From positions 26,228,001 through 26,292,000 of the forward strand of contig NC_087245.1 of NCBI RefSeq assembly GCF_037042905.1: a stretch of 64,000 bases of DNA, given 5' to 3'. Positions 15,391-63,600 of the stretch are shown piece after piece (the stretch's first letter is position 1; every line of letters starts with the position of its first letter). The notes below the pieces were generated by a model, which saw only the letters and a list, made by a program, of their open reading frames with translations, was not told the DNA's origin and made no database searches. Both the position numbers and the translations under genes were made by a program. The DNA is from Lytechinus pictus (lineage: Eukaryota).

Positions 15391-15753
15391 TATGGCGTCT
15401 AGAGGGTTAATTTCCGGGGGGGGGGGTAACAATCCCTGACGATAAAAATATGGGGATAATATTTTCCTTGAAGTAGATGTCAGGGGGCGATCGTCCGTTG
15501 GGTCATCGTTATAGAACCCCATGGACTCGTATCATTGGCCTTTTGACCTCTTGATGACATTGGATCTCACTATATCCTGATCATAATTTTACACACACCG
15601 CGGACTATCGGACCCGCGGAGTATCGGACCCGCGGACTATCGGACCCGCGGTCTATCGGACCCGCGGTCTATCGGACCCGCGGACTATCGGACCCGCGGT
15701 CTATCGGACCCGCGGTCTATCGGGCTGTAACCTTTTTTCCTTACAATGCATAT

Positions 15754-32515: not shown

Positions 32516-34467
32516 AGGGCCCTATTTGGAACGATTTTTTTTTACAGGGGTGCTGATGTAAATTTGAAAAGCAAAAAAAAGTAATTTTGGTTACATTTCT
32601 CAACACTTACAAAAATTCCAGGGAGAGTTGCCTATGGAAATTAGCACGTACATGCAGCATTTCTGCTTCTCAGTGCCATACATGTTTGTTCTCTTTTCGT
32701 TTTCTCCATCCTCTTTCCACCTCCTTTTTATCTTTCATGCAGGGGCGGATTCAGTATTTTCCAAAGGGGGGGGGGGCACATTTTCCCGAGGGAAAATGTG
32801 ACAACCAAAAAAAAGTTTTCAACAGAAAAATATTTTCAAAAGTTGGGGGCACACTTCTGTTTTAACGGCATTTTTATTACAAATTCTAATTGTGCCTCTC
32901 AAAGGGGGGGGGGGGCACCGGCCGGACGATCTCAGAGCATATGAATACCTCAAACACTCTCTTACATGATAGGCTGAAAAATATTTGTGGTGGAAAATGT
33001 CTGGCATACCCAAGTTATTGAAGACTTTTTGTGGTTTGTCCCTCCCTGGCCCTCGATCGATTGGGAAATCCTGCAAGGATCTGCCCCGGGATCTGCCAAT
33101 GGCCAATGCCCCCCCCCCCCCCCCATGGTCTCATGCCCTTTTCGCGAGTCCATCTCCTGGCCTTGAAAAAATAGCTTTTGTGTAAGAGCTTTATGAATAC
33201 CCGGCAATGGCAGTAAATATGATGACATTGTCATGTGCATGAGCTTGTAAAATGATTTGACAAACCATAAAATGATTCAGTTTTTCTTTTATGATTTGTT
33301 ATCCAGAAGACACAGTAGAACCTACATTTTTGTGTGTGACTTCGAAAATTTGCTATCATTCTCATTTTACAAGTTCGTTGGGCTAAAAATGCCTCTCAGA
33401 TGGTAAGTAAAGTGATATGTTTTCAAATGATTGTAACTTTTCAATTTAGTAGTGTGGTGTTATCATAATAAAATATGTTTATTTTACTGTTTTTCCGTAA
33501 TTTTGGTGCCGGCCCGGTGCACATCGCCGCGCCGGCTGACGTTTGGTTGCGTCGACGACTGTCGTCGTTGACATGGTACCGCGACGCTACCCGCTGCCTG
33601 TCCGGTTTCCGGGAGCGAGCCGGCCCAAAGCGCGGGAGGCCTAAATAACTATCCAAAAACCTCTCTCAATTCGGGCCACCAAAACTTAACATTTTTTCAA
33701 TAATGGTTGCCCGAGGTGAATTTCTGGTGGCCACCGCTAATGTCGAGCCTTGCCGTCCTTATCGTCATCCAAGTCACTGGGGACAAACTTGAGACACACC
33801 TCAAAGTCAAATATCAGCAAACTTTCAATGGAATCCACGGTTGGAAGATTTTCAAAAGAAATCTATTGTTCGCGGTGCGAAGCTTCTCACTGAACGGGGA
33901 CTTCCTTCCACCACACGTTTTCCCATTGACACAATAACAAATGACTCGGACACTTTTTCAAACGACAATAATAGTCTTTTTCTTTTCTCTCCTGTGGCTG
34001 TATATTCTTCCAAGTTGATGAAACAATGATCAAAAACACTAAATAAAACAAAATTAATCACATTAAAAACACTATTTAACTGTCTAATTACTCCTCGTGA
34101 TCCGAGTCCCCTTCCCGTGTTGAGACTGCCAATTTCCCATAGGAGGGGACTCGGATAACGAGTAATAGTACTCCTCGTTATCCAAGTCCCCTCCTATGAG
34201 AAATTGGACAGTCTTAACACGGGAAGGGGACTCGGATCACGAGGAGTAATAAGACAGTTCAATAGTGTTTTTAATGTGATTTTCATTGATTTTAATGATT
34301 CTTATTATCGAAAATGTTCATTTATCATCTCTAGGAAACTGTCTAAAAGTGGTAGAGTGGTTTTGAAGAGGAGGGAAATGAGGGGTAGATGAATATCAAC
34401 GGGTTAATTGCCATTTTGTATTTTTAGGAGAGGGGACTTGGATCACGAGTAATAGTACTCCTCGTTA

Positions 34468-35659
34468 CAGGGTAGGAATTACACGGGGGCGACGGGCGAT
34501 TTTGCCCCCATGACAGCCCAAATCGCCCCTAAAAATTCTCAAAACCCAATGCTTTGGGGCGACTTTTTATTTCAGAATCGCCCCAATAAAATACCATCGA
34601 CAATGTAAAAAATACTTCACATAATTACGTTCTCCGGGCCGCCGGCGGAGCAAGCGCATCTTTTATATCGCCCTTGCCAGCTTTAAGTTGAACGGTCGAT
34701 GCAATATCCGAACCTTCCGTAACACCGGAAGCTTCGCGATTGTAAAATAAACGCGCAATGCAATATGGGATGCGGAGTGTACACGCATAGTCTTTAGCAC
34801 GGGGTTTTTAGAATTATTGACGCACTTGCCGCATGGCTTATGTACATGTACGCGTGCACGATTAGACTGCACAGCTGGTAACGAGACCACGTGCATCGTA
34901 CGGTATATTATGTGTACTAGGCCTAGGCATGCACAGAATTGTATGCGATCAGCTGGTGATTGTGACAGCACTGATTATCGACATCGTCGAGTCGCAGTGC
35001 GAGATGGATAAGTTTCTAATTCGAGTTCAACCTGGCTCTGCCAAACGGCCAGAGCCAGCGCAAGAAGCCTCTCCAAATCGAGATACTGTTGAGAAGGATA
35101 AGCCAAAAAAGAAACAGTACTGTACAGAGACAATCGACAATAAAGTCTTGGGGCCTCGATTGGCTCAAATCTGAAGTGTGTGAAGCTGAAGCTCTGGTGC
35201 ACTAGCGTACCTACGGGGGGGGGGGCAGTCTGCCCCCCCCTGACGAGTCCCAACCCATGCACTTTTCTTCTTTTTTTTTTTGCTTGTCAATTTTTTTTCT
35301 GGTACGAAATCTTATATTTGTGGTTGAAGACTTGTTTATATTTATTTGCTTGTCACATTTTTGGGCAGACGAATTTGCCCCCCCCCCCCCCCCCCCCCGT
35401 GTGAAAAATCCTAGGTACACCACTGCTCTGGTGGGATCACTGTTGTTTATTGTAAGGCCTGTAGCCTACAGTAATTACAGTTAAAAATGTTCTGAGCTTT
35501 TAGGCATCACATTGAGTCTCGGAATGTCAAAAGGTAATTGCTGATATGCGATAAAAAAAGTAGCCCCATGAATTAGAAAATAGCCCCAAGATATTCAGTG
35601 GTAGCCCCAATGTAAAAAAAAAAGTAGCCCCTAAAAAAAAAAAATTAATTCCTACGCTG
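34468..35659 (+). mobile_element. Internally deleted hAT transposon retaining the transposase 5' end
   Basis: TIR CAGGGTAGGAATT / AATTCCTACGCTG. TSD CCTCGTTA at 34460-34467 and 35660-35667. Carries the ORF start MDKFLIRVQPGSAKRPE and a frameshifted SW.LDWLK...VYCKAC. Confidence 0.82.
35200..35425. mobile_element. hAT-type MITE nested in the transposase remnant
   Basis: TIR CACTAGCGTACCTA / TAGGTACACCACTG. TSD CTCTGGTG at 35192-35199 and 35426-35433. Confidence 0.82.
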
Positions 35660-37127
35660 CCTCGTTATCCAAGTCCCCTCCTATGAGAAATTGGACAGTC
35701 TTAACATGGGAAGGGGACTCGGATCACGAGGAGTAATAAGACAGTTAAATAGTGTTTTTAATGTGATTTTCATTGATTTTAATGATTCTTATTATCGAAA
35801 ATATTCATTTATCATCTCTAGGAAACTGTCTAAAAGTGACAGAGTGGTTTTGAAGAGGAGGGAAATGAGGGGTAGATGAATATCAACGGGTTAATTGCCG
35901 TTTTGTATTTTTAGGAGAGGGGACTTGGATCACGAGTAATAGTACTCCTTGTTATCCAAGTCCCCTCCTATGAGAAATTGGACAGTCTTAACACGGGAAA
36001 AGGACTCGGATCACGAGGAGTAATAACACGTTTAATAGTGTTTTTAATGTGATTTTCATTGATTTTAATGATTCTTATTATCGAAAATATTCATTTATCA
36101 TCTCTAGGAAACTGTCTAAAAGTGGCAGAGTGGTTTTGAAGAGGGAAATGAGGGGTAGATGAATATCAACGGGGTTAATTGCCTTTTTATTTTAGAGGGG
36201 GGACTTGGATCACGAGGAGTAATTATGCAGACATTCTTTTTACCTAACGAAATAAAGCAATGGAGACTGTTAAGAGGGATCGAGATGCGATTTGATTTAT
36301 TTAGTAAAAACGTGATAGACGAAATAAAGCAAAATCATAAAAAACATATATATGAAAAGGGATTTATTTAGCATAAAAAGTACAACGAAATAAAGCTATA
36401 AGTACTGAAAAAGAAGTAGATGCAATCCTGATTTATTTAGTAAATTAGGAATCAACAAAATAAAGCAATGGAGACTGAAGAGGGATCTAGGGCCTATTGA
36501 TTTATTTAGTAAAAACGTAGACGAAATAAAGCAAATTTTATATTGTGAGAAACATAAAAAAGATTAATATAATCCCGATTTATTTATATGAAAAGTACTA
36601 GTTTACGGATTAAAGCAATATAGATTGAAAAGAAGTAGGCCTAGATGCAATTCTGATTTATTTAGTAAATAAGGAATCAACGAAATAAAGCAATTGAGAC
36701 TGAAGAGGACATACTCATATAGGGCTTAAGTTATTGATTTATTTAGTAAAAACGTAGACGAAATAAAGCAAATTTGATATTGTAAGAAACATAAAAAGAT
36801 GAATATAATCCTGATTTATATATACGAAAAGTAATAGTTTATGAACTAAAGCAATAGAGAATGATGCAAATTCTGATTTATTACGCCAATAAAATAAAGT
36901 GGAGACTGAAAAGAGACAAGTAACACACAACTACGAGCTAGGTTGGTAGAGACAGGTAGGACATGTTTTACGTTGTGAAAAATTGTCCGTGGATCCGAGT
37001 CACCGGGGACTTGGATCACGATAATGCCGCCTTGCCTACTAAAACCTTGTAAAAGTTGTAAGTAGACACTTCACTTCAGCCGGGCGGGCGATCGCGCGGA
37101 CACAGCGCTAACACTTTTACTTACTGG

Positions 37128-40366: not shown

Positions 40367-43300
40367 ATGTCTTTGTTCAAAGCAAGAGATTGGTGGACAA
40401 CAACGGTTGGTTCAGGAGAGGTCTTTGATCAGGGCAGCCTCGCTGTAGCAAAGATTGATGGAAATTCAGCTTCTCATGGTAAGACATTCATCAAGGCTTT
40501 AATACAAAACCAATGCGAACAGGGCCGTTTCGTAAAGCTCTTCTTAAGGCCACTGCACACCTTACAACTGGTCCACGATCTGATTTTGGAGCAAATCACA
40601 GTTTGCTAATTTTCTGAAAATGTGAAATTTTTATGAAAAATATCCTTTTATTTGAGATATTTGCTGTATTTATTAAGTGAATTTTGACATTTTTTAAGAT
40701 AAAACTGTTAAAATGTTCATACTCTCCATAAAATTGTATTATCTTTGCCCATTTCTGTATTTGTCAAATTTTCATATTTCAGACAAAATTGTTGTTGGAA
40801 GTTTGAATGGGGTTCTTCGGATCTACCAGCCTCAACCGTCTAAAGGAGATAACCTGAAAGCTGAAGATGTAGTTCTTGAAGCTCAGTTGCAGCAACCCAT
40901 CCTTCAGGTTGAAACAGGACGCTTTGTTTCGTAAGTATTATATTTTTTATTCGGCTGCATACAAGATGTACATGTATGCTAACAAAGAGTACAATGCTTT
41001 ACCTAAATCCACTTCCACTATCAATTCATAAACAGTTATCTCATTGACTTCATCATCACAGCTTCATACATCAATAATAGGAACCATCTTCTCCATTTGT
41101 CTGTAGCAGAAGCAACTCTTGCTTTGAATTCTCATTCTTTCCTCATATCATACATATCTGAAACCAACTTCAACCATGGTAGATACTGCTCCAGTAGTTA
41201 CTGTCGAGTGTATCATGGTCTGGTGGTTTTGACTCTCCGCTTTTAAACAGAGGGTCGTGGATTCGAATCCCAGCAATGTATTTGCATGCATGCAGCCATT
41301 GGCCGTGTTGTTTAGGGGGCTCTTCTGGCTGGTGATTGTAATCTTTCCTGCATTAAATTTTCACAAAAGACGAAATGGATTTCATTTTGATGTTGCACTT
41401 TTCCTGTGTCGTTAGGGATATGTATCTGCACAAATACCTATTCTTGACTGGTGACAGTCAGTGTAAGTTCTCATACTCACAGTTTGCTGTGAAAAGGCTG
41501 ATTAATGCATAGATAGGGTTGCTAACAAGTTTTTTGATGAATGCCAGGTAATCTAGCCTACTGGTCATATGGTGGGTTGCATCAATTGGTGTAAAACCAG
41601 GTAAATATTCAACAAATTGGGCATAGCCTAGTTGGAAATCTGACATATTTAACATGGTAAATTGTTAATTTTTATTGATTTGCAGAAAAATCTGTTAGTC
41701 ACTATTACAGAAAAGAGGTTCATTTTCTTCTGTACTTTTTTCCATTTCAATATCATTGTAATTAAAGGGTTTTAAGAGTAGTTAGGCAGTACTGTTACCC
41801 TGGTCACTATTATTTGATCGAAATAGTCACTGCTTACTGTGTCACATGGCATCTAAGTTTTTGGTTGGTAACTCCTTTTGCCAGTGGATTTCTTCCTTCA
41901 AATTATTCTCATAATATCTGTTTCTTATTTCTCATCAGGGCATCAGAATCGGTGCATTTATCTGTACTCCATCCCCGTAAACTGGCAATTTACTCTGTCC
42001 ATGGTGAGTTGTAATGTTATGTTGTGCCATGATCACAGTCATTTTGAATAATGTTACATCCACTTCAATTGGTCTGCTATCATTTGGGTTTTCAGGGGGG
42101 GGGGGAGTTTTATATGTTGTTATATAAATGCTAAAATATTGTTGTTGTTTTTGTCTCGCCTGCATAGCAGAGCGAGACTATAGGCGCCGCTTTTCCGACG
42201 GCGGCGGCGACGGCGGCGGCGGCGGCGGCGTCAACATCAAATCTTAACCTAAGGTTAAGTTTTTGAAATGACATCATAACTTAGAAAGTATATGGACCTA
42301 GTTCATGAAACTTGGACATAAGGTTAATCAAGTATTACTGAACATCCTGCCTGAGTTTCAGGTCACATGACCAAGGTTAAAGGTCATTTAGGGTCAATGA
42401 ACTTAGACCATGTTGGGAAAATTATTTTCAAAATCTTAACCGAAGGTTAAGTTTTTGAAATGACATCATAACTTAGAAAGTATATGGACCTAGTTCATGA
42501 AACTTGGGCATAAGGTTAATCAAGTATTAGTGAACATCCTGCTCGAGTTTCAGGTCACGTGACCAAGGTCAAAGGTCATTTAGGGTCAATGAACTTTGGT
42601 CAAGTTGGGGGTATTTGTTGAATTACTATCATAACTTTGAAAATTTATGGATCTAGTCCATGAAACTTGGACATAAGGTTAATCAAGTATTAGTGAACAT
42701 CCTGCCTGAGTTTCAGGTCACATGACCAAGGTCAAAGGTCATTTAGGGTCAATGAACTTTGGCCAAGTTGGGGGTATTTGTTGAATTACCATCATAACTT
42801 TGAAAATTTATGGATTTAGTTCATGAAACTTGGACATTAGGTTAATCAAGTACCACTGAATATCCTGTGCGAGTTTCAGGTCACATGACCATGGTCAATG
42901 GTCATTTAAGGTCAATGAACTTTGGCCGTGTTGGGGGTATATGTTAAATTACCATCCTAGCTCTGAAAGTTTATGGATCTAGTTCATAAAACTTGGACAT
43001 AAGAGTAATCAAGTATCACTGAACATCCTGTACGAGTTTCAGGTCACATGACCATGGTCAAAGGTCATTGAAATTTGGCCGTGTTGGGGGTATTTGTTGA
43101 ATTACCATCCTAACTGTGAAAGTTTATGGATCTAGTTCATAAAACTTGGGATATAAGAGTAATCAAGCATCACTGAACATCCCCTGTGAGTTTCAGGTCA
43201 CAAAACCAAGTCAAAGGTCAGTTAAGGTCAATAAACTTAGGCCATGTTGGGGTAATTGTTGAAGTGCCATCATAACTTTGAAAGTTTATGGATAGAGTGA

Positions 43301-46300
43301 ATGAAATGTGGACATGGGTGTAGTTGACAGTCTTAAGTCTCCGTTCAAATGTCATTTATGGTCAATGAACGTGGTATTATGTCATTATATGAATGATGTT
43401 TTTGTGAATGATTATTTTATAGTAGTTTTCAAAGTTAGCACTGCTGCTATATTAGATTGCGTAATGCAGGCGAGACTGCCAGAGGCGTTCCACTTGTTTA
43501 GTATTCCTCGTGCAGTTGTGCGAGGAAACGGGTAAATTGTGACATTTCTTTCTGTAATTGATTTCTGCACTGCAAACATATATAGTTACGTATGGCACAC
43601 AACACAGCAGATGATCACTGCTCGGATGATATCAACCTAGAAAATTCTTTTGCCAAATCCACAACATAATACTCTCAGTATTTTGAACTAGAACAAGAGA
43701 GAGCCAATGTTATCAATTGCATGAAAGATTTGTACGAAGGACAAACTGCCTTGTCACCTTCGGATAACACAAAGGAATATGGAATATTTAACATGTATGG
43801 CACTCACACATCTATAAGTACAGAATCCAGTGTTCAAAGTTTTTAATAATACCAATGAATATACATTTTAAGGAAACTTAATTCTATGGAAAATGCCTTG
43901 AGCAGTCTGTTTAAAATTGTTTTGCTTGAGCATAATTAACTCATTAATTTGCACATATTCAAGAAATGGTATTGAACAATTTTACATTTATTGATTTTAA
44001 CATTTTGTACACTAGGCGAAGATGATAATATATGATTTTGTTGTGTTCAGGTGTGACCGGTGCAGTGGAGCATGGTTCTCAGTACCATCTAAAACTCATG
44101 TATGAACACAACCTCCAGAGGACAGCACACAGTCTTGTAGTGGGACCATTTGGAGGGGTCAAAGGTCAGTATTTTGTGTTTCAAAAGTTTTGTACATAAA
44201 ATGGTTTGTACATAAACTGTTTGTTTTTTGTGTTATTTTGGGGGCTTTTGATGTCTATTTCATACTTCACCCCTACTTGTTATTGTTTCCTTTATTGCAC
44301 ATTCAGTTCAAATTTGTTTATATATATTTATGATACTTATTCACATGGCACCGTACCATAATACCTTGCCAAATGGGTTCATGGGAGCCTGAGAACTAGT
44401 CTGGTTTATCATTTTATTTTAATTTCTAATGTCAGTAGGGAAAATAGTGTCTTTTAGGTGCGATAGTGCATTGAGTCACTGTCATAATTTTTTTTGTTAG
44501 ACAGTTCTGATCAGCAGAGACCATCGTAAAGACATCACTGATCCCCCTTTAATACAGACTGTTTAAAAAAGGGAAAAGTTTTCAAATAGATTGATGGCCT
44601 GGTGGCAAAATCAATACTTATACGGGCCAATGAGAGTATGGGCTTAATCTTTTCTTTTCAATGTTATTTAATGTTAATTGTTATCTTGAATATTTGATTT
44701 CTTATCCTCTTTGTACATCATTTGCCTTCAGTCACTTCTTCATATTTGTTTCTCCACCTTTACAGGAAAAGATTTCTTGTGTGTTCAATCAATGGACGGC
44801 ACCGTTTCTTTCTTTGAGCAGGAGAGCTTTGCCTTCAGTCGTTTCCTGCCTGGCTTTCTCCTACCCGGTCCTATCAAATACATTCCACGTACCGATTCCT
44901 TCGTGACGGTGTCGTCCTCATGGCAGGTAGAAAGTTACAAGTATCAGGTCCTTGCTGTGGCCTCTGATTCCAAGACCAAGGAAGAGTCTCAGAAGATGAC
45001 GTTAGGCAAGAGAATCACTGTAAGTTTTTGAGTTGTAATCTTCCCTCTTCTCCAATGAGTCGCTTTTTAAGCCGTATTCAGACATGGTGAGACAAATCAT
45101 CCAGCTTTAATATGCTGATGAGCATGCACTACCCTCTAGTGTAGCTGGAAACCTTGTCAGGAAGGGAAAAATTGTTCTGACATCAAAGGAAAAGGTACCT
45201 CATCCTTTCGGGAAGCACTTTCATACCAACACAAATTTCTGACAAGTAAAAGAAAAAAAAAAGATATTGCACCCCCCTCTTTCTCTTAGTTATGCTAGTG
45301 CCAAATTCAAGCGCAGGCAGAAGACATATTTTTCATTGCCTTATACAAAGTATTGCTGAGCTTTGTTGGTTAGCTTTTTCCATCATATCTGAACAAGGTT
45401 TTAGTGTCCTCTTTTCTATTTCATTCCCCAGCAAGAGCTGACATTTATAGTAATCAGCTGGTGATTGGGAGAGCTGTTGGGTGGCTTATAAAATTTGGCT
45501 CACACTGTTCCGGGGGGGGGGGGGGTGATGGAGTTCAAAGCCAGCAGAAACGGAACATGCATTCTTTATGAATGGGCATATATACTTGTCACAGCACTGG
45601 TATAATTTACAATTGCCATTTCATCTGTATTGAAAAACAGGAGTGTATACTTGAATCAATTTTTCTTGTGGGTATACTGTGCGTTACAATATAGGTCTAA
45701 AATTGATTAAACCTATGCTTATTTCAGATTGTGTTCAAAGTGTAATTACTTGCATATTCTTTAACAGGCTGACTGGACATATCCACTGGGGGAACCTGTC
45801 CTTGATATGTCAGTCATAACTCATGCAAATGCAGTACCATCTATAGTCATATTGGGTAAGTAAATATGAAGGCATGATTTCATATAACATGTTGGTCTCT
45901 ATTCTAAACTGTGAACTATCCATTAGTTTATTGTACATGTAGATTTTCTATTCATCCAATGATCTGACTGGATTAGGTTGAATGATCCGTGATCTTTTCC
46001 TAAAATATACTGTAATCACAATAACTTTATATCTATATTAGAGGTAAGACTACTAAATCATGATTATAAGGTCAATGGTACAAAAAAAATATGGAAAAAA
46101 AATTATTTCAATCACAATGACTATATTTGGAAGCAGAATAATCAAATTCATACCCAAGTTGCATGGCTTGAAGTCATAAACAATTAAAAAAATAAATTAC
46201 AACCTTCATGAAAAGCCACTGGAAATATATATATATTTTTCTTACCTTAGATGCATTTTAACCATATTCAAATGGATTATATCCACTAGGTCTACAAGAT

Positions 46301-49300: not shown

Positions 49301-52300
49301 GTTTATAGCATAATTTATACAATGTAATGATGTTTGATATTATCTGTTTGTAGATTTTGCTCCTAAGAAGAAGATTGATGATGATCTCACAATGACAGCT
49401 TCTGTACCATCCAATCTAGATGCGAGTTCAGTAAGTTCAACCATTTACACTATGTTAGATAGCAATCTCCACTTTATTGTCAATCAATCTATTCTATTCT
49501 ACTGACTGCACAACCTCCAACCTCTGGGTAGTATTCCAACAATGAGTTGTCAGTCTGTTCTAATTGCTAAGCCAGCGACATTGACATAACCATTATTGAA
49601 GAGTGATCTGTTCTTTCATGCCACAATATTAAATTATTATTGCACTGTCTTGTAGCCTTACCCTTCAGCTGCCTCTACTACATCCCTTCATTTAGAATGT
49701 CTCATCAAGAATCTCATTATTTGCCTTTATTTTATTTTGTCAGGCTGCTCAAGAAACGGAGATACCAGATGAAGATCAGATTCCTTTATTAACTGTAAAG
49801 GTAAGTACTGCTTTATATTAGTAATGTGCAGAGTCATATGTAACTTACAAATATTATCATTATTGCTATTATTATTATTTGACCAAATCACACAATACAT
49901 GATACAAACATAAATTACTTTCACATGATAGAAAACAAACGATACAGAATGGAGTAGTGCTACTCGCTGGTCAGGGATGATAAAAGCATAATAAAAAGCT
50001 GTTGCTCAGAAGCATCAATAGCTTAAGAAAACGACCCTAGGTTCTTTGTGCATTACCTCAGTAGGTTTTTACATGCAAGACATCAATGAACACGGTCTGA
50101 AGGTGATATGAGAAAATGGAGAAGCACGTTAGGAAACTTGAAGAAAATATTTTTTTAGACATCAAATGTGAGGGCTAAACTTCTCTAAACATACAGCATT
50201 ACTCAAACTATATCTATCTGATAGGCACTCACTCTCTCGACACTTTGAAATACTGTTTTAACGATGTGGATGATGATGCAGTTAGCTGCTGTTACAAATG
50301 GATTACTTTCATGAAAAAAATATCAGGTAACTTGTAAAGAATAAGCAGCTACCTAGACCCAGGCCTACCATGAACATTTGATGTGATTTTAATATAAATG
50401 TGATTTTAAAGAGCATATCACTGTTGATTTAATCATAATTGTTATTTACATCATTTTCCAGCTCACATTGAAGAGTCAGACTGGAATATCTAATGTACGA
50501 GTTTTACTACACTGTCCGTATCCATTGGCTGCAACACAGAGTACTTTCACCATTCCATATGTCGGTAAGCTCTCACTTTTATGAGATATTCTTGCAGAGA
50601 TTTCATTTATATAAATCATTTTACCTTGTAGAAGTTAGAATCTTTATCATGAAATGTGCTATATCTTTGACAATTATGGACATTCTTATGTTGGAGAAGA
50701 GTGTAAAGCAACTTTCAAAACTTGGGTTGTTTGGGGGGACTTGAGCTTTAATTTTCAATGTGCCACATTGATTTATGTTGGAAAGTATTTTTTTCTTCAA
50801 ATTTCTAAGATAATGATGAAAAAGCCTTGCTTGGTGAAGATTACTCAAAAATAATCCACAGACATACAATACAATGAGCATTGTTGTTTTACAAGGTCTG
50901 TACCGCCAGCATTAAAGAGAAAATGAATTGTTGCGAATGTATAGATAATAAGTATGATTGCATCAAAATGTATCTGTGGCATGCTAAATGAATGCCCTTT
51001 GTTCTGCAGGAGATGTGTCTAATCCCACTACCACAATGATCACGTTCTTCATGAGAGGACATTGTTTACCAGCTTCACTAGTTGCTAGGGCAACAGCAAC
51101 ATACACTACATCAGCAGGTAAATATCTTGAAGTAGTCCCATTTTCTGCATTTACAGTAGAGGTTAGACTAAAGAGAGTTGATATTGAAGATGTGCCTTTT
51201 CTATCTATGTTTAATTGTTTTTTATATCAAGTTCTCAGAATATACTTTCTCTGGTATTCTGCACACTTTTTCATACCCCCATATACAGTGGTGCTCAAAA
51301 ATTAGTGAACCCCAGATTCAAAGTGTTCCAAGTTCTGTAATGTTTTAGATATTTAATTGTGATGTCATGTGATAAAGTGTTACATTCAATAAAGTTTGTT
51401 TATCTGGGCTCGCCGAACATTGTAGTGTTGTTTTCTAGATTCAACACTCAGCATGAAGGCGTGCATTTTGTGGTGGGATTTACTAACTTTTTAGCACAAC
51501 TGTAGGCCCACCCACACACACATGCTCATTCATCTTGGATAGTAAGGGCAAGTGGCAAAGTTGTAAACATAAAATGAGAGGTGCTGTCCTCAAATTGTCT
51601 CTCTATAGTTAGCTGTGGTTCATTTAAGGTGTGAATTTCATATCATGCGAAAGCTGTAATATTAATAACGACATTTATTGAATTCAGACTATCAGATTTG
51701 TAATTTATTTCTTAAATAGTGCAACTCTGTTGGGACCTGGTTTACACGGTCATGATTTCTGTCATGTATTCTCTCATTATCTGTTGAGTGCAATCAAATC
51801 TTTTGATGAAGAGCTACATGTACACTGAAAAGGTTAATTTTTGTCTCGCCTGCATAGCAGAGCGAGACTATAGGCGCCGCTTTTCCGACGGCGGCGGCGG
51901 CGTCAACATCAAATCTTAACCTAAGGTTAAGTTTTTGAAATGACATCATAACTTAGAAAGTATATGGACCTAGTTCATGAAACTTGGACATAAGGTTAAT
52001 CAAGTATTACTGAACATCCTGCCGGAGTTTCAGGTCACATGACTAAGGTCAAAGGTCATGTAGGGTCAATGAACTTAGACCATGTTGGGAGAATTATTTT
52101 CAAAATCTTAACCAAAGGTTAAGTTTTTGAAATGACATCATAACTTAGAAAGTATATGGACCTAGTTCATGAAACTTGGGCATAAGGTTAATCAAGTATT
52201 AGTGAACATCCTGCTTGAGTTTCAGGTCACATGACCAAGGTCAAAGGTCATTTAGGGTCAATGAACTTTGGTCAAGTTGGGGGTATTTGTTGAATTACTA

Positions 52301-55300
52301 TCATAACTTTGAAAATTTATGGATCTAGTTCATGAAACTTGGACATTAGGTTAATCAAGTACCACTGAATATCCTGTGCGAGTTTCAGGTCACATGACCA
52401 TGGTCAATGGTCATTTAAAGGAGAATGAAACTCTTGGAGCAAGTTAGCTTTTATGAAAGCAGAAAAATCAAAGAATAAGATCAACAAAAGTTTGAGTAAA
52501 ATAAGACTAGCAATAGAAGAGTTATGAGCATTTTAATGTCGAGATCACTAATGCTATGGAGATCCTCGCATTGGCAAAGCGACCAAGATCTATGATGTCA
52601 CAGATGAACAACTCTCCCCTTTTGGACACTGAAAATACACTGTATACCCCAAAACATCTCTTTTTGCTCATTCTAATCATATGACAAACGATTCATCAAT
52701 GATATAATGTTGTGAAACCTCTGTACTTGTCCTCTCATAAAGAGAACACCTCACCTTTTGATAGACTCTATAAAAGTGAGAATATAAGTGAAATAAGTAC
52801 TAAAGTAATGAGGGAGTTGTACGTGTGTGACATCACAGATCTTGGTCGCATTGCCAATGGGAGGATCTACATGGCATTAGTGATCTCGACATTCAAATGC
52901 TCATAACTTTTTTATTATTCATTCAATCTTCCTCAAACTTTCAACAATATGTTTCTTTGATTTTTCTCTTTGATATGGATTCAGCTGGTTTCAAGGGTTT
53001 CATTCTCCTTTAAGGTCAATGAACTTTGGCCGTGTGGTTTTTTTTGTGTTAAATTACCATCCTAACTTTGGAGGTTTATGGATCTAGTTCATAAAACTTG
53101 GACATAAAACTTGGGGTATAAGAGTAATCAAGTATCACTGAACATCCCCTGTGAGTTTCAGGTCACAAAACCAAGGTCAACGGTCAGTTAAGGTCAATAA
53201 ACTTAGGCCATGTTGGGGTAATTGTTGAATTGCCATCATAACTTTGAAAGTTTATGGATGAAATGTGGACATGGGTGTAGTTGACAAGTCTTAAGTCACT
53301 GTTCAAATGTCATCTATGGTCAATGAACGTGGTATTATGTCATTATATGAATGGTGTTTTTGTGAATGATTATTTTATAGTAATTTTCAAAGTTAGCACT
53401 GCTGCTATATTAAATCGCGTAATGCAGGCGAGACTGCCAGAGGCGTTCCGCTTGTTTTGTTAGGGGTGTACAGGTGTTCTGTTGGATACTGTCAAAGCAT
53501 TCAAGACTTATTGTTTCTTTTTCAATTTTACTCTTAGGAGTACCACACATTGTTCAGTGTACCATCAAGCTACCTCTGAAGCTTGTATGTAAACCCTGCC
53601 AACCTGCCAAGAATGCTACACATAAGATCACACTGGACTCTAACAAGAATTGTGCCAATCTACACGATATATTCCCAGGTAAGCACTGCATCACCAATGG
53701 TAACTTATGGTTACCAGACCAAATTACCTCTGTCTATACTCTCTTTTTTCCTCTCTCTCATTCTTTTATATTATTTTTTATTTTGGGTGGATGTCCCTTG
53801 AAGCGTACCTCTCATATTTTGATTCTTATTTTATTGTACTTTGTTTCTAAGAGATAGTTATGACTGTATTATGAGTTAAGTGTCATCAGGTTTGATTTAT
53901 GGGTTTGATATTCATAAGTCCGTATTGTTTTTTTTATCACCCTCAGATTTGATTAAAAAGTTTGATATCCATGATTGTATTGCGTGTTTTGCATCCTCAG
54001 ACTTGATTGAAGGGTTTGATAACAATGATTATATTGTGTGTATATATCATCCTCTGATTTGGAATAAAGAGTTTGATCAACATTATTGCATTTTCCTCAG
54101 CTTATGATTAAAGTGTTTGATAACCGTGGTTGTATTCTGTGTATAAAACAAATTGTCCTAAGATTTGATTAAAGATTTGATAATAATGATAGTATTGTGT
54201 GTGTATTGTCCTCAGGTTAAGAATCAAAGGTTTGATCAACATGATTGTATTGTATGTTGATTGTCCTCAGATTTAACAGGACCAGAAGGAATGGGATCAG
54301 GTAATGCTCTTGGTTTACAGATATTTGGAGGTCCCAGAGTTACCATCCTAGCTTCTAAATCATCACGTAAGTCAGTCATTTTGTTTGTACCTGAATAGTG
54401 AATATTTTTTTATACAGTTGATTCTTTGTGAGAAATGATTTTTAAATCTCTTGACATCAAACATACACCCCTTCTCAAATAGCAGATAGTCTTTGTTTCC
54501 ACTGACTAATTTGTTCTGAGCCAATCAGATGAAAGGATTTCAGTAGCTTATAACAGTTGTCTGTGAAAATCTCTTATAATAATCAGTAGGTACTTACAAC
54601 CCTGGAGCCCGTTTCATAAAGATTTACAACTGTTGTTACTTTGCCATTATGGCAACTACCATGGTAACAGGGCTCGGCACCGAATCAAAATCAAGGTTAC
54701 CATGGTAATTGCCATAATGGCAAAGTTGTAACTCTTTTTTTTATTTGGGGGGAGGGGGTCTGCCTTTCACATTATCTGGCTATTTCAGGTCATTTCAGAA
54801 GGAGATGGGTTCTTCGCAAACCAGGAAAAAGATTGTTATAAATTTTGGGGAGCTATATTGTAATGCATAGTTTACGTTGAATCCCTGGGAATATCAGGGG
54901 CTCTTTTCTATTTAGTTTTCCAAGTCTCTAAATAGACATTTCAGGGGTGAATTTGCCTCAAGCACCTGTGTGTTCCCCCCCTCCCCCTTTGCAAACAGCA
55001 TTTTTAATACAGCAGCATCTCTCAATGTCAGATTTTGAAGAACAACACTTGACATTAAAGAATCCTTTCTTGTATCTGCTTTCTTTTTCCAGAGAGGTAT
55101 CGACTGCAGTGTGACATCTTTGAAGCAATGTGGCCTGTGGTCAACGAGTTCATTGAACGTGTCAGAATATATCATGTGAATACTGGGGTCAAGGATTTCA
55201 AGCTCTCTTTCTCATCAAATCTTATGATGCAGGAATATTTTGAGCTTATTGATACACACATGGAGGTAAGGATCATATCTTAGGCACAAGAGATTAAATC

Positions 55301-58300
55301 CCTCTTGTGTGCGAACGGGCTCTGAATGGGTTCTGAACGGGGATTAAAAGAGTCGACAATAGACCCCGTTCGTTCAAGTTCATTCACGTTCAGAATCCTA
55401 CTGAAGGATTGAGCTGAGAAGAGTACTGATTTTCATTGTCTTCTCGCACAAAAGGGGGTGTCACTGTACGGCAAAGCGAACGGTCGGATTATTAATGAAT
55501 GAATACATGCGAACGTTGGGATTAATTCAAGCCTTGATAGAGATTTCTTACTACAACGCTGGGCATTTCCCGAATAAAAAGGGATGATCAAACTTTGAGC
55601 GCTTCTTAAGTTGGACGAACAAACACGCGGCCTTGTATTTATTCATTGATATTGAAAGTTTATTATCAACCTTCCCCTTTTTAATTTCGCCGGGCGTATT
55701 GTTCATTTATAACCATTTTGACATTCAATACAGATCGTTTGTCAAGAATTTTAAGACATTTCCCGTGTATGAAGGAATGTCCAAACTTTGCGCTTTTTTA
55801 TTTTGACGACGATATTTTTTTATTTATATTGAAAGTTAATCATTAGACATTCGTTACAAATCGTCTAACAATAATTTTAAGACATTTCTCGAATTGGAAG
55901 AGATGTCCAAACTTTGCGCTTTTTATTTTTGACGAACGTATTTCATTTAATTTAAAGTTGATAGACAACTTAACGATGTCGATGCTATCTCTCCGACACC
56001 AGGTCCGGCGCAAAATTGACATTTTTCTTCCCGTGGTCATCCTTTATTTCATACCCTGACATCGGTTACGTGATCATAAAATAGGTTCTGACGTCAGACA
56101 ACTTAACGATGTCAACGCTATCTCTCCGACATCAGATCAGGCGCGGAGGTCGTCCGCTAGTTTATCCTTGACATTTTTCTTCCCGTGGTCATCCTTTCTT
56201 TCATACCCTGACATCGGTTACGTGATCAAAAAATAGGTTCTGACGTCAGACAACTTAACGATGTCAACGCTATCTCTCTGACATCGGATCAGGCGCGGAG
56301 GTCGTCCGCTAGTTTATCCTTGACATTTCTCTTTCCGTGGTCATCCTTTATTTCATATCCTGACATCGTTTACATGATGATAAAATAGGTTCAGACGTCA
56401 GACAACTTAACGATTTCAAAGCTATCTCTCCGACATCAGATCAGGCGCGGAGGTCGTCCGCTAGTTTATCCTTGACATTTTTCTTTCCGTTGTCATCCTT
56501 TATTTCATATCCTGACATCGTTTACATGATGATAAAATAGGTTCAGACGTCAGACAACTTAACGATGCCGGTGCTATCTCTCGGACACCAGGTCCGGCGC
56601 AAAATTGACATTTTTCTTCCTGTGGTCATCCTTTATTTCATAACCTGACATCGGTTACGTGATCATAAAATAGGTTCTGACGTCAGAGAACTTCACGATG
56701 TTGGCGCTATCTCTACGACATCGGATCAGGCGCGGAGGTCGTCCGCTAGTTTATCCTTGACATTTTTCTTCTCGTGGTCATCCTTTATTTCATACCCTGA
56801 CATCGTTTACATGATCATAAAATAGGTTATGACGCAGAGAGCTTGACGATTTAGGGGAAGGGGGGGGGTTTGCTTTGAGGCCGATATTCTATACTTCAGT
56901 TTTAAAACTTTATTTCATATCGAGAAGCATCAAGAAGAAGAGATATGTGTATATTGTGGGAGGATAGATAGTAAATCGCGCAATTATATCAATCTGATTA
57001 TTCCCTCCTTTAATTATTCAGAATTACGCTCATTGACAATCATCTTTTAATTTAATATCCTAGCACAGTTAAACCTTCATTTTTTATGCCGTGTCGGATC
57101 GAGAAAAGGCGAGAATCATATTTGGTTGGAAGATAATGATTTTAATTCACAATGCAAATTGCATAATAAGCTCTGATGTCTTTTAAACATATAAGCCTCC
57201 GATGTCGGAGTAAGAATTTATCAATACAGCAATGTCGAATTTTAGGGGGTTTGGGGAAAATGGTTTCATTCAATATCGATCAAAATTACGAAAATCACAA
57301 GCAAAACAAAAATTGGTCACAATGATATGCCTATATATAAATGAGTGATCATCACTCCTACTCCCTCGTTATTTTCATGACCGTATACTTTATCATTATT
57401 GTGATTCATCATGCTCAAATATATTCGACCCCCCCCCCCCCCCTCTGGATTAGAAGCTCTGTTAATATTAAACAGTTCTGACCCGAATCCGCGTCAAAAG
57501 GGATTTACGTTCGCTCAAACAATAACATACACTTTGATGTCATTCATACCTTAAGAATCACTCCGGGGGTTAATCCCCGGCCGCGGCACCTATGCCCGTC
57601 AGCAAGGCATTTAATCCGCAGCGTTCTTTTATCCTGCATTCAAATAAAGGGTGAATCACCTTTAAAAGTATGGTATTGTTCAAGTTTTTAAGTGTCAGGA
57701 ATTTGAAAGAGCAAAGTTTGCTGCAAGATTAAACGTACATTATTATCGTTTAGTAGAAGTTATTTTGCGACATTTATCGAGTCAGAAGGGATGTCTAAAC
57801 TTTGATGCTACCCGATATGAAATAAATGTTTAAAACTGAGGTATACTGTAGAAAACAACCTCAAAGCCCCCCCCCCCCCTCATCTCTCTCGCTCTTTTTC
57901 TCTCCATCCATAGACCCCACCTCTCCCTCCCTCTCTCAAACTCCTAACTCTATTGGTGCCCAAATTTTTCTTATCACAGTTCAATATTTATAAACATTGC
58001 AGAAAACATGTGGTTTCATCGTGGAAAAAGGTCAATCTCTCAGTTCATGTCAATCAAATCCAGTTGTGGATTGCGCAATAGAAAACAATGGTGTTGCAAT
58101 CATTGAGCCTCGGTGTGCTCTGTGTGAGAATAAATAATTTCGAAAGGTATAGGTTAAAAATCGTTAGAAGTATCAAATAACAATTTAAAACCTTTTTAGG
58201 TCAATATTCGTTTCATGGCGGAGCGGATAAAAATGAAGCAAATATTTGATGTTATTGGAAGATATAATTACTAAAGGTGAACCCGGAAGGTGAATTATAT

Positions 58301-60634
58301 TGATATGATTATGTCCATCTCGAAATTCTACAAAATTATGCTCATTGACGATCATCTTTGAGTTTAGTATTCTAAACTGAAATCAAATAAAGGGATGAGT
58401 TTGAGAATAGTAGGAAAGTCAATAGATGGAGAGATAGAACGAGAGAAAGATATATATGGAGAGGGGGGGGGGGAGATAGCGACTTTTGCGCCTGATGTTG
58501 TAGAGATATAGCCGACATCGTTAAGTTTTCTGACATCAGAACCTATTAAACGATCATGTAAATAATGTCAGAATATGAAATAAATAATGACCACGAGAAG
58601 AAAAATGTCAAGGATGAACTAGCAGACGACCTCTGCGCCTGATCCGATGTCGTAGAGATAGCGCCAACATCGTGAAGTTATCTGACGTCAGAACATATCT
58701 AACGATCATGTAAACGATGTTAGGGTGTGAAATAAATGATTACCACGGGAAAAAATGTCAAGGATAGAATAGCGGACGACCTCCGCGCCTGATCCGATGT
58801 CGTAGAGATAGCGTCAACATCGTGAAGTTTTCTGACGTCAAAATCTATTTCATGATCGTGTAAACGATGTTAGGGTGTGAAATAAATGATTACCACGGGG
58901 AAAAAATGTCAAGGATAAAATAGCGGACGACCTCCGCGCCCAACCTGATGTTGGAGAGATAGCGTTGGCGATCGTTAAGTTATCTGACGTCAGAACTTGT
59001 TTATGATCATGTAAACGATGCCAGGGTGTGAAATAAAGGATGACCACGGGAAGAAAAATGTCAAGGACAAAATAGTGGACGACCTCCGCGCCTTATCTGA
59101 TGTCGTAGAGATATAGCCGACATCGTTAAGTTTTCTGACGTCAGAACCTATTAAACGATCATGTAAATAATGTCAGAGTATGAAATAAATAATGACCACG
59201 AGAAGAAAAATGTCAAGGATGAACTAGCAGACGGCCTCCGCGCCTGATCCGATGTCGTAGAGATAGCGCCAACATCGTGAAGTTTTCTGACGTCAAAATC
59301 TATTTTATGATCATGTAAACGATGTTAGGGTGTGAAATAAATGATTACCACGGGAAAAAATGTCAAGGATAGAATAGCGGACGACCTCCGCGCCTGATCC
59401 GATGTCGTAGAGATAGCGTCAACATCGTGAAGTTTTCTGACGTCAAAATCTATTTCATGATCGTGTAAACGATGTTAGGGTGTGAAATAAATGATTACCA
59501 CGGGGAAAAAATGTCAAGGATAAAATAGCGGACGACCTCCGCGCCCAACCTGATGTTGGAGAGATAGCGTTGGCGATCGTTAAGTTATCTGACGTCAGAA
59601 CTTGTTTATGATCATGTAAACGATGCCAGGGTGTGAAATAAAGGATGACCACGGGAAGAAAAATGTCAAGGACAAAATAGCTAGTGGACGACCTCCGCGC
59701 CTTATCTGATGTCGTAGAGATATAGCCGACATCGTTAAGTTTTCTGACGTCAGAACCTATTAAACGATCATGTAAATAATGTCAGAGTATGAAATAAATA
59801 ATGACCACGAGAAGAAAAATGTCAAGGATGAACTAGCAGACGGCCTCCGCGCCTGATCCGATGTCGTAGAGATAGCGCCAACATCGTGAAGTTTTCTGAC
59901 GTCAAAATCTATTTTATGATCATGTAAACGATGTTAGGGTGTGAAATAAATGATTACCACGGGAAAAAATGTCAAGGATAGAATAGCGGACGACCTCCGC
60001 GCCTGATCCGATGTCGTAGAGATAGCGCCAACATCGTGAAGTTATCTGACGTCAGAACATATTTAACGATCATGTAAACGATGTTAGGGTGAGAAATAAA
60101 TGATTACCACGGGAAAAAATGTCAAGGATAGAATAGCGGACGACCTCCGCGCCTGATCCGATGTCGTAGAGATAGCGTCAACATCGTGAAGTTTTCTGAC
60201 GTCAAAATCTATTTCATGATCGTGTAAACGATGTTAGGGTGTGAAATAAATGATTACCACGGGGAAAAAATGTCAAGGATAAAATAGCGGACGACCTCCG
60301 CGCCCAACCTGATGTTGGAGAGATAGTGTTGGCGATCGTTAAGTTATTTGACGTCAGAACTTGTTTATGATCATGTAAAGGATGTCAGGGTATGAAATAA
60401 AGGATGACCACGGGAAGAAAAATGTAAAGGATAAACTTGCGGACGACTTCCGCGCTTGATCTGATGTCGAAGAGATAGCGCCGACATCGTTAAGTTCTCT
60501 GACGATTAACGAAATACGTTCGTCAAAATTAAAAAGCGCAAAGTTTGAACATCCCTTCTGACTCCAGAAATGTCTTAAAATTGTTAGACGATTTGTAACG
60601 AATCTCTAATTTATTGACTTTCAATATAAATGAA

Positions 60635-60674
<40 letters not shown>

Positions 60675-63600
60675 TCATCCGTCAAAATTAAAAAGCGCAA
60701 AGTTTGGACATCCCTTCACACACGGGAAATTTCTTATCATGAGCGCAAAACATCTGTACTTGATCACCTTTTAATATAAATGAAGAAATACGTCCTTCAG
60801 AATTAAAATGCGGGAAGTTTTGACTCAGGATATTTCTGAAAATGATCGCCAAACGATCTGCATCGAGTGTCAATTCCATACATTGGCAAACTTTTTTTTT
60901 TTTTTTTTTTTTTTTTTGTCACTTTTATCACTTGGGGAAAATCCCCCTGGACCCGGCTGTAGCTGTTTCTAGCTGAGCAGAACTATTCTACGTTCTGAAC
61001 GGAGTACTTAAGCGCTTTCTATTGACTTCTTTGTTAACAATAATCCTTGCGTTCGGGTGTATGCAGGGGGCTTTACAAACGCATTCGTGATGGGGATTAG
61101 CAAGACAATAGAGCATACCGAACGCGCACGAACTTAAGTGATATTAAATCTCTTGTGCCTTAATCAAACTGTTTGTTAGGATAGTACAGACAAGCTCTTT
61201 AGAATGCTCTATAAATGATAAGTAAGCATGACTAATCAAACTTACACACCTGGGGGCCGTTTCATAAAGCTGTTCATAAGTTAAGAGCGACTTTAAGAAC
61301 GACTGGTGATCCTTTATTGTGGTAAATGGTATATTCATTGGCGATGGTTACGCGCGTAAGAAAGGTTCACCAGTCGTTCTTAAAGTCGCTCTTAACTTAC
61401 GAACAGCTTTATGAAACACCCACCTGGTGGGTGTTTCATAAAGCTGTTCGTAAAGTTACACATAACTTTACATACGACTGGAACATGATCTTAGATGCTA
61501 AGTGAGCTACATAGGGTAATATCATTTAGCACAAGAAAGGGTCACCAGTCATGCGTAAAGTCATTTGTAACTTTACGAACAGCTTTGTAAAACACCCACC
61601 AGGTAGTAGTTTTCAGCAGGCCTTGAATTTTGACATTTTAGAATAAGGGTACATCTTTATATTAACCAATCATGTGGAATGTTTATAAATCAAAATGAAT
61701 GAATTAATCTTCAATTGGTTTTAATTCAGACTATAACTACACGTTCCGTTGCGATACCATTTTCAAAGAAATTGTAGTAGCATTTGATTTGAACATTCCA
61801 ACTTCTAAAATCTTAATGATCAAAGTTTTGAATAGTGGTATGAATACTAAAATCAATACCAGTCTAATTCAAGTTTCCCTTTAGAGATAAATGCAAATCA
61901 AATTCCAATTTGTAATGATGTTATCATCTGTTGCGACTTTAAGCCAACTGCGACTTTACTGCAACCACAATGCTTGCAGCAAAGCTTAATTCTGATTTTA
62001 GTAATGTGAACTTTTACACTGAACTTCAAAGAAAATAATTTCACTTCATAGTTAATGCGAAATGTGATTAGATGAAAAATTATGCCTTAGTTTGATTATG
62101 TGGTATAAGATGGGCGTAAGTGATGTATTTTTTAAACAAGTTTCATTTTAGAATACACACTATTCTTTGATTTAGTTGAGGGTTCACGCAGAGAGATACA
62201 AGGAGCTTCTAGACCAGAGAGCTAAACAATTCCGAGCCATCCAGAGGAGACTTCTGACCAGGTTTAAGGATAAGACCCCATCACCTCTCAATAATCTTGA
62301 TACATTATTGGAAGGAACCTATAGACAGGTGAACAAATAGTCCTCATTCAACTTTATCTTAGTTCCTCAGTCATAGATTGTATGATTACTAAAGTAAACA
62401 TACTAGAAAGTAACTCTTGGTTTATCAACACTTCACTATTCTAGAGGCCTGAAAATATCTATTGTTGTGGAGAGGGAAAACAAAATGTCTCATGAATCAA
62501 ATTACTATTAAACTTTTAAATTCTGTTTTTGAAAGTAACATCTACCTCCCTGTGGGTATCATGTATGCACCATGAGTGAAAATAGGAATGCTCCCATAGG
62601 ACAATCCGATATCATGACTGCTCCCTTCAGCTACAAGAACCTAAAGACAAGCTATTTATATAAATAGATGAATAAATGAGATACAATGATGATAACATTG
62701 TAGGAAAAGAAAATGAGTAAATTGATAAAAAGTAAATAAATAACAAATATGTAAGTAAAAAATAAAACTAAAACAATAAGAAAGTAGCAAATAAACAAAA
62801 GATGAATAATAATTGAATAAAGATAAGAAACAAAATAATACATTAAAAATTACCAAATTAACTGGTTTGAATAGAAGTGAAAATAAAAAATGCTTTATGT
62901 CCTTATCAGAGAATATGATTTTCAATACATGGTTTCCTTTTTCCTACGTAGATATTGAAATTAGCTGAAGGCGTGGATGAAAATCAAAAGGCTCTAGTTC
63001 GCTGCTCCATGGGTCTGAGCTGTGCCACTAGTATAATTACCACTCTTCTTGCTCTTGCTCATGGGTTCAGCGAATCAGAGAAAGAGATCTTGGATGCTAG
63101 TCTGTCTTCACAAGTACAGTGTGAAGGGGATCAGGTAAGTAGAGAGTGCAGTTGTCATAATGGTGATGATGATGAAAAAAGAGAACTTGATAAAACAGGG
63201 GTTAGTACTGATATCATTTTAAATGAACTTGACCTAAGGTTAAGATTTCAAAGTTTCAAGATAGCGTTGTAATTATAAGTCTATTTTTTTAATCTTGGAT
63301 GTAATGATGAGTTTGATTATGATATCATAATCAGGTAACTGGGTCAAAGGTAATTTCAGGTCAGTTAATTTTGATAAGAACTGGTATTTTTTTATGATTT
63401 AAAAAATAGCCACAAAAGACAGGTTTTTGCTATACACAGGTGGTCGCAAAGACAGATTTGACTGTATATATATTTTTTTCCTATAATTCTTTTATTTACA
63501 AAAGGGTTGGGAGGAAACGGTAGATGCATCCATCATCAATCTTCTGAAAACCTGCTTGGCTAAATCAGCCAAAGACCAAGCGATTAATCCAGCCCCACTG

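What the first reader, a model, noticed from the sequence alone, without database searches (positions are those of the whole stretch)
55283..61159. Harbinger-like element carrying two inverted satellite arrays, one with alpha-satellite-style higher-order structure
Seen: TTA TSD and 13-bp TIRs enclose a left array (about 6 units) and a right inverted array (about 14 units) of the same roughly 151-bp monomer. Diagnostic variants in the right array run A-B-C-D, A-B-C-D, A-B-B-C-D, giving a 605-bp four-monomer period with near-identical copies, while adjacent monomers differ more. The left array has its own 152/133-bp variants, so the two arms homogenise separately. Inference: this is a snapshot of satellite DNA arising and forming higher-order repeats inside a mobile carrier. 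The monomer is about nucleosome length.
Basis: partly seen in the sequence, partly recalled or inferred. Interest (0 to 1): 0.72.

Follow-up and report, generated by a model that had tools for sequence, protein, structure and literature searches.

The report
Transposon with mirror-image repeat arrays
A gene-less jumping DNA element, absent from the same spot in a related genome, sits in an intron of the cilia gene BBS9 and carries two mirror-image repeat arrays whose 'higher-order' pattern likely comes from only two or three recent local duplications, an early step on a known route from transposon to satellite DNA.

Summary
The element is real. It spans 55283-61159 with 13-bp TIRs and a TTA duplication, 17 nt into a BBS9 intron. 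Contigs from 2 of 3 samples of a related organism join the two flanks over a single TTA (empty site). Other contigs carry the same ends with different flanks. It codes for nothing. Its arms are foldback-like: older ~125-bp repeats, then inverted ~152-bp arrays (left ~6 units, right 13.3).

The A-B-C-D order holds, but 'alpha-satellite-style HOR' overstates it. One 605-bp duplication (715/715 identical plus a 4-bp insertion) on top of an older five-monomer duplication explains the order, so there are about two copies of the period. The left arm has its own older four-monomer period (589 bp, 93%). The right array is not homogenised. The arrays were not checked against reads, and no free-standing satellite or transposase partner was found. 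Harbinger is likely (TWA duplication, subterminal GAACG cluster), but Zator is not excluded.

The closest published case is Tetris. This scan has already noted several satellite-armed foldback transposons elsewhere in this genome (unchecked notes). Modest interest.

The parts
55280..55282 (+). left copy of the 3-bp target-site duplication TTA
   Evidence: single TTA at the empty site in organism A
55283..55295 (+). left 13-bp TIR
55283..55560 (+). left unique end; 7 GAACG motifs; a 9-bp-stem hairpin (55284-55310) that includes the start of the TIR; no clear similarity to the right end beyond the TIR
55560..55962 (+). left flanking domain: three old, degenerate ~125-bp repeats (about 78% alike)
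55962..56853 (-). left array, ~6 monomers (152/133 bp), with an older four-monomer period of 589 bp (93%)
56854..58493 (.). non-coding middle, a patchwork of decayed internal copies (56859-56933 inverted at 57802-57880; 56982-57062 direct at 58293-58374; a 125-bp-unit piece at 57762-57804)
58494..60505 (+). right array, 13 full monomers plus a 43-bp piece: A B C D / A' B' C D* / A' B' B C D'
58704..60027 (+). youngest duplication, period 605 bp: 58704-59418 matches 59309-60027 at 715 of 715, plus one 4-bp insertion
60508..60890 (-). right flanking domain: inverted ~125-bp repeats, with an (AT)18 run inside
60925..61159 (-). right unique end; 4 GAACG motifs; a 67-bp stretch (60996-61062) is duplicated in the main contig of runs X5 and X7
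61147..61159 (-). right 13-bp TIR
61160..61162 (+). right copy of the TTA duplication
55094..55265 (+). host BBS9/PTHB1 exon upstream (platform domain); the element begins 17 nt past its GT donor
   Evidence: Pfam PTHB1_pf; splice sites read by eye
62176..62328 (+). next host exon, open and in phase
   Evidence: boundaries read by eye; PTHB1 domains lie in order on both sides of the element

Best explanation
This is one copy of a multi-copy, non-coding cut-and-paste transposon family that duplicated TTA on entering a BBS9 intron, likely moved by a PIF/Harbinger transposase and its Myb-like partner made elsewhere, and its higher-order pattern is likely the passive trace of two or three out-of-register duplications in an array of already diverged monomers. 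Shown: ends, TSD, empty site, other flanks, no coding frame, foldback-like arms, the duplicated blocks. Inferred: (1) the partner protein would read the GAACG cluster in the outer ~250 bp, not the 152-bp monomer, which has no such motif; (2) one flanking-domain-plus-array module was copied in inverted form to make two arms, which then diverged ~15%; (3) unequal crossing-over or slippage aligns best-matching monomers several units apart, so one event copies a block of four or five. One history that fits: a five-monomer block (A B' B C D) doubles, one B' is lost, then C D A' B' doubles.
For: Empty site: a 577-bp contig of X5 (depth 83.5, minus strand) aligns to 55121-55282 with its letters 415-576 and to 61159-61216 with letters 361-418. 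A 187-bp contig of X7 (depth 46.2) does the same (51-187 and 1-54). They were matched across calls by length, depth and strand. Their loose ends before 61159 match the left flank 55249-55278 at 27 and 26 of 30 letters (counted by eye). Other copies: contigs leave the right TIR through TTA into at least four other flanks, and the fourth base varies (C, T, A), so the duplication is 3 bp; two more pieces match only the first T. A 312-bp contig in X1 and X3 starts aligning at 55282 after 68 other letters. End contigs are roughly ten-fold deeper than exon contigs (X1 205-398 vs 10-13; X5 809-1181 vs 83.5; X7 441-893 vs 46-72; a rough guide, not a copy number). No coding: 0 of 65 frames of 30 aa or more outside the arrays reach a Pfam cut-off; Rfam 0. 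GAACG: 11 in the two ends vs 0.29 expected, the top 5-mer of all (corrected P about 1e-11), and 0 in the arrays. PIF/Harbinger make 3-bp TWA duplications and their Myb-like partner binds subterminal sequence (PMC13668399, passages). Blocks: 715/715 plus 4 bp at lag 605/609; 326/328 at lag 1364; 198/210 at the array edge.
Against: No transposase partner with these ends was found (no genome; 0 matches in two metagenome scans). Zator also makes a 3-bp TAA duplication (PMC12905397, passages). All read evidence comes from organism A, which differs at 8 of 180 exon letters, not from the window's own sample. X1/X3 showed neither an empty nor a filled junction among the pieces listed, and the tables were cut. 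The arrays were not compared with reads, so the 605-bp duplication and the arrays of other copies are unverified. Both arms having a period near 600 bp may not be chance.
Confidence: 0.7

Rival explanations
1. Same anatomy and history, but the mover is a Zator (or another 3-bp-TSD superfamily) rather than PIF/Harbinger.
For: Zator-1 of amphioxus has 3-bp TAA duplications (PMC12905397, passages). The element has no coding remnant that would decide the matter.
Against: The TIR here is 13 bp against 33 bp in that Zator-1. A subterminal motif cluster fits the two-protein Harbinger scheme. Unchecked scan notes report Harbinger transposases in this genome.
Confidence: 0.15
2. One reading: a satellite is being born here and is organising into a maintained alpha-satellite-like HOR, with a preferred unit of about 600 bp.
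For: The four-monomer period is real. Both arms independently show four-monomer periods, 605 and 589 bp. The route from arm repeats to satellite is published for Tetris (PMC4079207, passages).
Against: There are only about 2.2 copies of the period (1324 bp at period 605), and the older period is five monomers. No long or free-standing array was seen (searches found nothing, but they do not search this genome's DNA fully). No motif in the monomer is unusually conserved (longest invariant run 7; 7101 of 20,000 shuffles reach it).
Confidence: 0.12
3. The element is real, but the youngest 605-bp duplication is an assembly error (false duplication or merged haplotypes).
For: 0 substitutions over 715 bp. 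No reads of the source animal were available (best share 0.12).
Against: The two copies differ by a 4-bp insertion. The older 326/328 and 589-bp blocks would remain. The host exons scanned are open and in order.
Confidence: 0.08
4. The 152-bp arrays are functional: they carry extra protein-binding sites (the 12-bp palindrome TCTGACGTCAGA) that help transposition or host-factor binding, as proposed for Galileo and Tetris.
For: The palindrome core TGACGTCA occurs 15 times in the arrays vs 2 in the rest of the window. The Tetris paper proposes this role, citing Galileo. The 156-bp DTC84 repeat also has a 12-nt palindrome (PMC3879986, passages).
Against: The counts reflect copying of one monomer. 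The palindrome is not conserved beyond chance among 10 monomer types. The terminal motif is absent from the arrays.
Confidence: 0.12

Closest known systems
Tetris, foldback transposon of Drosophila virilis, and its TIR-220 repeats (PMC4079207; passages read)
   Same: Non-autonomous. Inverted arms built of a flanking domain, a tandem-repeat domain and an inner piece around a non-coding middle. Monomers within a complete copy are about 87% alike (here ~85%). Array length changes by local duplication.
   Different: Tetris has 8-10-bp TSDs, was suggested to be Mutator, and its long inverted arms are terminal. Here the TSD is 3 bp, the true TIR is 13 bp, and the outer ~240-280 bp of each end are unique. 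Tetris repeats were shown to form long arrays; none is shown here. The terms 'higher-order' and 'HOR' do not occur in its main text.
Non-autonomous PIF/Harbinger elements (features as stated in PMC13668399; passages read)
   Same: 3-bp TWA duplication, conserved termini, no coding capacity, clustered subterminal motifs.
   Different: 5.9 kb with inverted satellite-like arms. No DDE or Myb/SANT partner tied to these ends was found.
DTC84 of the clam Donax trunculus (PMC3879986; passages read)
   Same: Mobile element carrying a short array of ~156-bp repeats with ordered variants and a 12-nt palindrome.
   Different: One array of up to five repeats plus a microsatellite, putative AA duplication, no inverted second array, no repeated multi-monomer period.
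Human alpha-satellite HOR (PMC4107277; passages read)
   Same: A block of diverged monomers repeated with higher identity between blocks than between neighbours.
   Different: Alpha-satellite HORs are centromeric tandem arrays, usually chromosome-specific (hundreds to thousands of copies, recalled). Here there are about two copies, mixed periods, in an intron.
TU elements of Strongylocentrotus purpuratus (Liebermann 1983; only cited in PMC4079207; paper not seen)
   Same: Sea-urchin foldback element with long inverted arms.
   Different: Recalled: 15-bp outer repeats and an 8-bp duplication; here 152-bp repeats and a 3-bp duplication.

Membership tests
PIF/Harbinger | 3-bp TWA target-site duplication | tested here: met
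   Filled site TTA...TTA, empty site single TTA; other copies continue TTA with a variable fourth base
PIF/Harbinger | terminal inverted repeats | tested here: met
   13 bp exact; no other letters listed within the TIR in organism A (the table was cut)
PIF/Harbinger | DDE transposase plus Myb/SANT gene in the element or in an autonomous partner with the same ends | not testable with these tools
   Element is non-coding; no genome held; metagenome scans empty
PIF/Harbinger | subterminal sites bound by the Myb-like partner | tested here: inconclusive
   GAACG cluster, 11 vs 0.29 expected; binding not tested
Zator | 3-bp TAA-type duplication | tested here: met
   Same data as for Harbinger; Zator-1 TSD
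Zator | Zator transposase in a partner | not testable with these tools
   No partner found
Kolobok / piggyBac | 4-bp TTAA duplication (recalled) | tested here: not met
   Left flank reads CTTA; the empty site holds one TTA; the fourth base varies in other copies
Foldback (Tetris-type anatomy) | long inverted arms with internal tandem repeats around a non-coding middle | tested here: met
   55668-56850 vs 59576-60820, 78% over 1270 bp; up to 90% in pieces
Foldback (Tetris-type anatomy) | arms reach the termini; 8-10-bp duplication | tested here: not met
   The outer ends do not align better than the best of 30 shuffles (score -19, shuffles mean -40, best -5); TSD is 3 bp
Alpha-satellite-type HOR | blocks more alike than adjacent monomers | tested here: met
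   Lag 4 mean 9.6 vs lag 1 mean 22.3
Alpha-satellite-type HOR | one fixed multimer amplified into a long homogeneous array | tested here: not met
   About 2.2 copies, periods of four and five mixed; other loci not examined
Helentron-associated (Pearl/DTC84/DINE-like) | no true TSD, single central array plus microsatellite (partly recalled; DTC84) | tested here: not met
   True 3-bp duplication and two inverted arrays; the left end does hold a TIR-linked hairpin

The most novel reading that the evidence does not exclude
A Harbinger-type family has evolved foldback arms, and its young dispersed copies each grow multi-monomer periods independently, with a bias towards units of about 600 bp (605 and 589 bp in the two arms here) set by chromatin or recombination geometry. 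The family would then be a replicated natural experiment on how higher-order repeats begin, and possibly the source of a long HOR satellite elsewhere in the genome.
Probability: 0.12. Interest if true: 0.62.

Novelty: new variant of a known kind. Interest (0 to 1): 0.33.

Why it matters
It is a clean, bounded example (empty site shown) in which the first steps of a higher-order repeat can be read as single duplication events. It also suggests that foldback anatomy, mostly ascribed to Mutator and P elements in PMC4079207, arises in a 3-bp-TWA superfamily too. If other copies show the same bias in period, the family would let one test how HORs start. For the host, the arms would form a long duplex in BBS9 pre-mRNA (predicted -523 vs -130 kcal/mol for shuffles; 60-bp perfect run) and add 13 sense-strand AATAAA motifs, so an effect on splicing or silencing is possible but untested. 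As it stands it confirms a known route rather than opening a new one.

Tried and rejected
Whole-genome survey: not possible, no genome is held. Metagenome scans with a left-end pattern and a monomer pattern: 0 and 0. Look-ups of earlier notes by sequence and by relatives: 0 windows; by words: 0. Runs of the source animal: none listed; 8 of 15 rows held 0.07-0.12 of the words, and four of them (three samples) were laid. RNA genes: none. Transposase remnants: 4 of 65 frames gave weak unrelated Pfam hits (E 0.016-0.096); frames inside the arrays were not scanned. Common origin of the 152-bp and ~125-bp repeats: a monomer profile found no significant hit outside the arrays. Conservation of the TGACGTCA palindrome (the 'CRE' label is recalled): not above chance. 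A 4-bp TTAA duplication: rejected. A nested second element starting at 55668: not supported; a 654-bp X5 contig runs from the right array edge through the right end, and 55556-55770 is covered by single deep contigs. Nucleosome-length argument: not tested; similar lengths occur in unrelated element repeats (156 bp). The original Zator paper is not held. Ten literature searches listed no paper describing an HOR inside a Harbinger or foldback arm. Only listings and keyword passages were seen, no supplements, and Repbase-type entries and subscription journals are not covered.
Full report
Observation. The stretch 55283-61159 begins and ends with an exact 13-bp inverted repeat and has TTA on each side. 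That alone is weak: 25 such pairs within 12 kb occur in this repeat-rich window, most inside other repeats. The right array (58494-60505) has 13 full monomers of 150-156 bp and a 43-bp piece. The left array (55962-56853) is inverted and has five full monomers and two partial ones. Pairwise differences give A B C D / A' B' C D* / A' B' B C D'. The mean is 9.6 at lag 4 against 22.3 at lag 1 and 16.8-25.3 at all seven other lags; 402 of 100,000 order shuffles did as well at any lag from 2 to 6.

What the higher-order pattern is. Positions 58704-59418 equal 59309-60027 at 715 of 715 bases, apart from one 4-bp insertion. That is one duplication of 605 bp, or about 2.2 copies of the period. Removing it leaves nine monomers in which B C D-front recurs five units on (326 of 328 at lag 1364), while the edge block matches at only 198 of 210. 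B' resembles C in its first half and B in its second, and B, B' and C differ by only 7-16 sites. So the array holds three lineages and mixed four- and five-monomer periods, and two or three events account for it (inference). The left arm has its own older four-monomer period of 589 bp (270 of 291). Right-arm types differ from each other by 22.2 sites on average, from left monomers by 23.4, and left monomers from each other by 15.2. Duplications are local to each arm, but the right arm is not homogenised. Multi-unit periods are not special to this element: a zinc-finger exon in the same window shows periods of 696, 717 and 1413 bp.

Anatomy. Inverted similarity extends beyond the arrays to 55668 and 60820 through older ~125-bp repeats. 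The outer ~240-280 bp of the two ends do not align better than the best of 30 shuffles. Those ends hold 11 copies of GAACG against 0.29 expected, the top 5-mer of all (corrected P about 1e-11 under a simple Poisson model); the arrays hold none. The 1.6-kb middle is a patchwork of decayed internal copies. None of 65 frames of 30 aa or more outside the arrays reaches a Pfam cut-off, and Rfam finds nothing. Eleven of 69 plus-strand frames scanned (69 of 83 listed) match PTHB1/BBS9 domains in gene order, ten before the element and one after. The element starts 17 nt into an intron, and the next exon is open and in phase (splice sites read by eye).

Mobility. No genome is held, so I used public runs. 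The best held only 0.07-0.12 of the sampled words. They come from 'organism A', which differs at 8 of 180 exon letters, so it is a close relative and not the source animal. Four runs from three samples were laid on each junction. In X5 a 577-bp contig covers the left flank up to 55282 and, in the second call, the right flank from 61159; the two alignments overlap by four letters, C plus one TTA. In X7 a 187-bp contig does the same (matched by length, depth and strand). Their loose ends match the left flank at 27 and 26 of 30 letters. This is an empty site in 2 of 3 samples. The third (X1/X3) showed neither form among the pieces listed. Other contigs leave the right TIR through TTA into at least four different flanks, with C, T or A as the fourth base, and two match only the first T. 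End contigs are roughly ten-fold deeper than exon contigs, which suggests on the order of ten copies; the tool warns that depth is no copy number. A 654-bp X5 contig runs from the right array edge to the right end, so the flanking domain is part of the family. The arrays themselves were not compared with reads, so array length and order in other copies are unknown.

Mechanism. Most likely a non-autonomous PIF/Harbinger derivative, moved in trans. That superfamily makes 3-bp TWA duplications and uses a Myb-like partner that binds subterminal sequence (PMC13668399, passages), which fits the GAACG cluster; binding is inferred. Zator also makes 3-bp TAA duplications (PMC12905397, passages), and without a partner gene it cannot be excluded. 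The arrays likely ride along and change by out-of-register recombination or slippage. A binding role for the monomer, as proposed for Galileo and Tetris, finds no support here: its 12-bp palindrome is not conserved beyond chance. An assembly error in the youngest block is possible, but the 4-bp difference between the copies argues against it.

Comparison. It works like Tetris of Drosophila virilis (PMC4079207, passages): non-coding, inverted arms with flanking and repeat domains, about 87% monomer identity within a copy, and single duplications changing array length. It fails the Tetris features of terminal arms and an 8-10-bp duplication. DTC84 shows ordered ~156-bp variants inside a mobile element (PMC3879986, passages). 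It meets the minimal HOR definition but not the amplified-array feature of alpha satellite (PMC4107277, passages). PMC10048060, PMC13553610, PMC5139131 and PMC3016246 were seen as keyword passages only and added no closer case. Ten searches listed no report of an HOR inside a Harbinger or foldback arm; coverage is limited to open papers, and no supplements were read. Earlier notes of this scan, which I did not check, describe several satellite-armed foldback elements in the same genome, with 4-bp and 9-bp duplications and far longer arrays. The 'sea urchin' label comes from those notes.

Verdict. A real, young, multi-copy element and an accurate observation, with an over-reaching label. The new aspects are a 3-bp-TWA element with foldback arms and four-monomer periods in both arms. 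Interest 0.33; new variant of a known kind.

Noticed in passing
window 21693-27119 (+): A 1808-aa stop-free C2H2 zinc-finger frame built by block duplications with periods of 696, 717 and 1413 bp.
   Followed up: partly
window 55284-55310: The left end folds into a 9-bp-stem hairpin that includes the first part of the TIR; an 11-bp deletion near 55321-55328 occurs in some organism-A contigs.
   Followed up: partly
window 58579-60396 (+): Each right-array monomer carries AATAAA on the BBS9 sense strand (13 copies), a possible source of early polyadenylation.
   Followed up: no
window 61160-61168: Several other-copy contigs match this flank for 7-9 bases past the TIR, which may hint at a target preference longer than TWA or may be aligner run-on.
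   Followed up: no
window 61244-61612: Palindromic MITE-like inserts 80 bp past the element; organism-A cover stops at about 61220.
   Followed up: no
window 54496-54727: A very high-copy short palindromic element in the upstream intron; depth thousands of times that of the exon.
   Followed up: no
window 42239-43315, 51911-52430, 136-735, 4330-4872: A dispersed family with 163/192-bp tandem core repeats, Pearl/Tsp-like by recall.
   Followed up: no
window 34056-36216: A unit of about 290 bp with inverted ends and TAA flanks, repeated at 34088, 35660 and 35947.
   Followed up: no
window 1575-2507: A 13-bp inverted pair with TTA flanks around a short frame matching ERGIC_N on the minus strand; by eye it could be a 4-bp TTAA boundary.
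   Followed up: no
window 9754-9944 and 15511-15723: Two inverted copies of a 16-bp minisatellite with flank, 5.6 kb apart, 90% alike.
   Followed up: no
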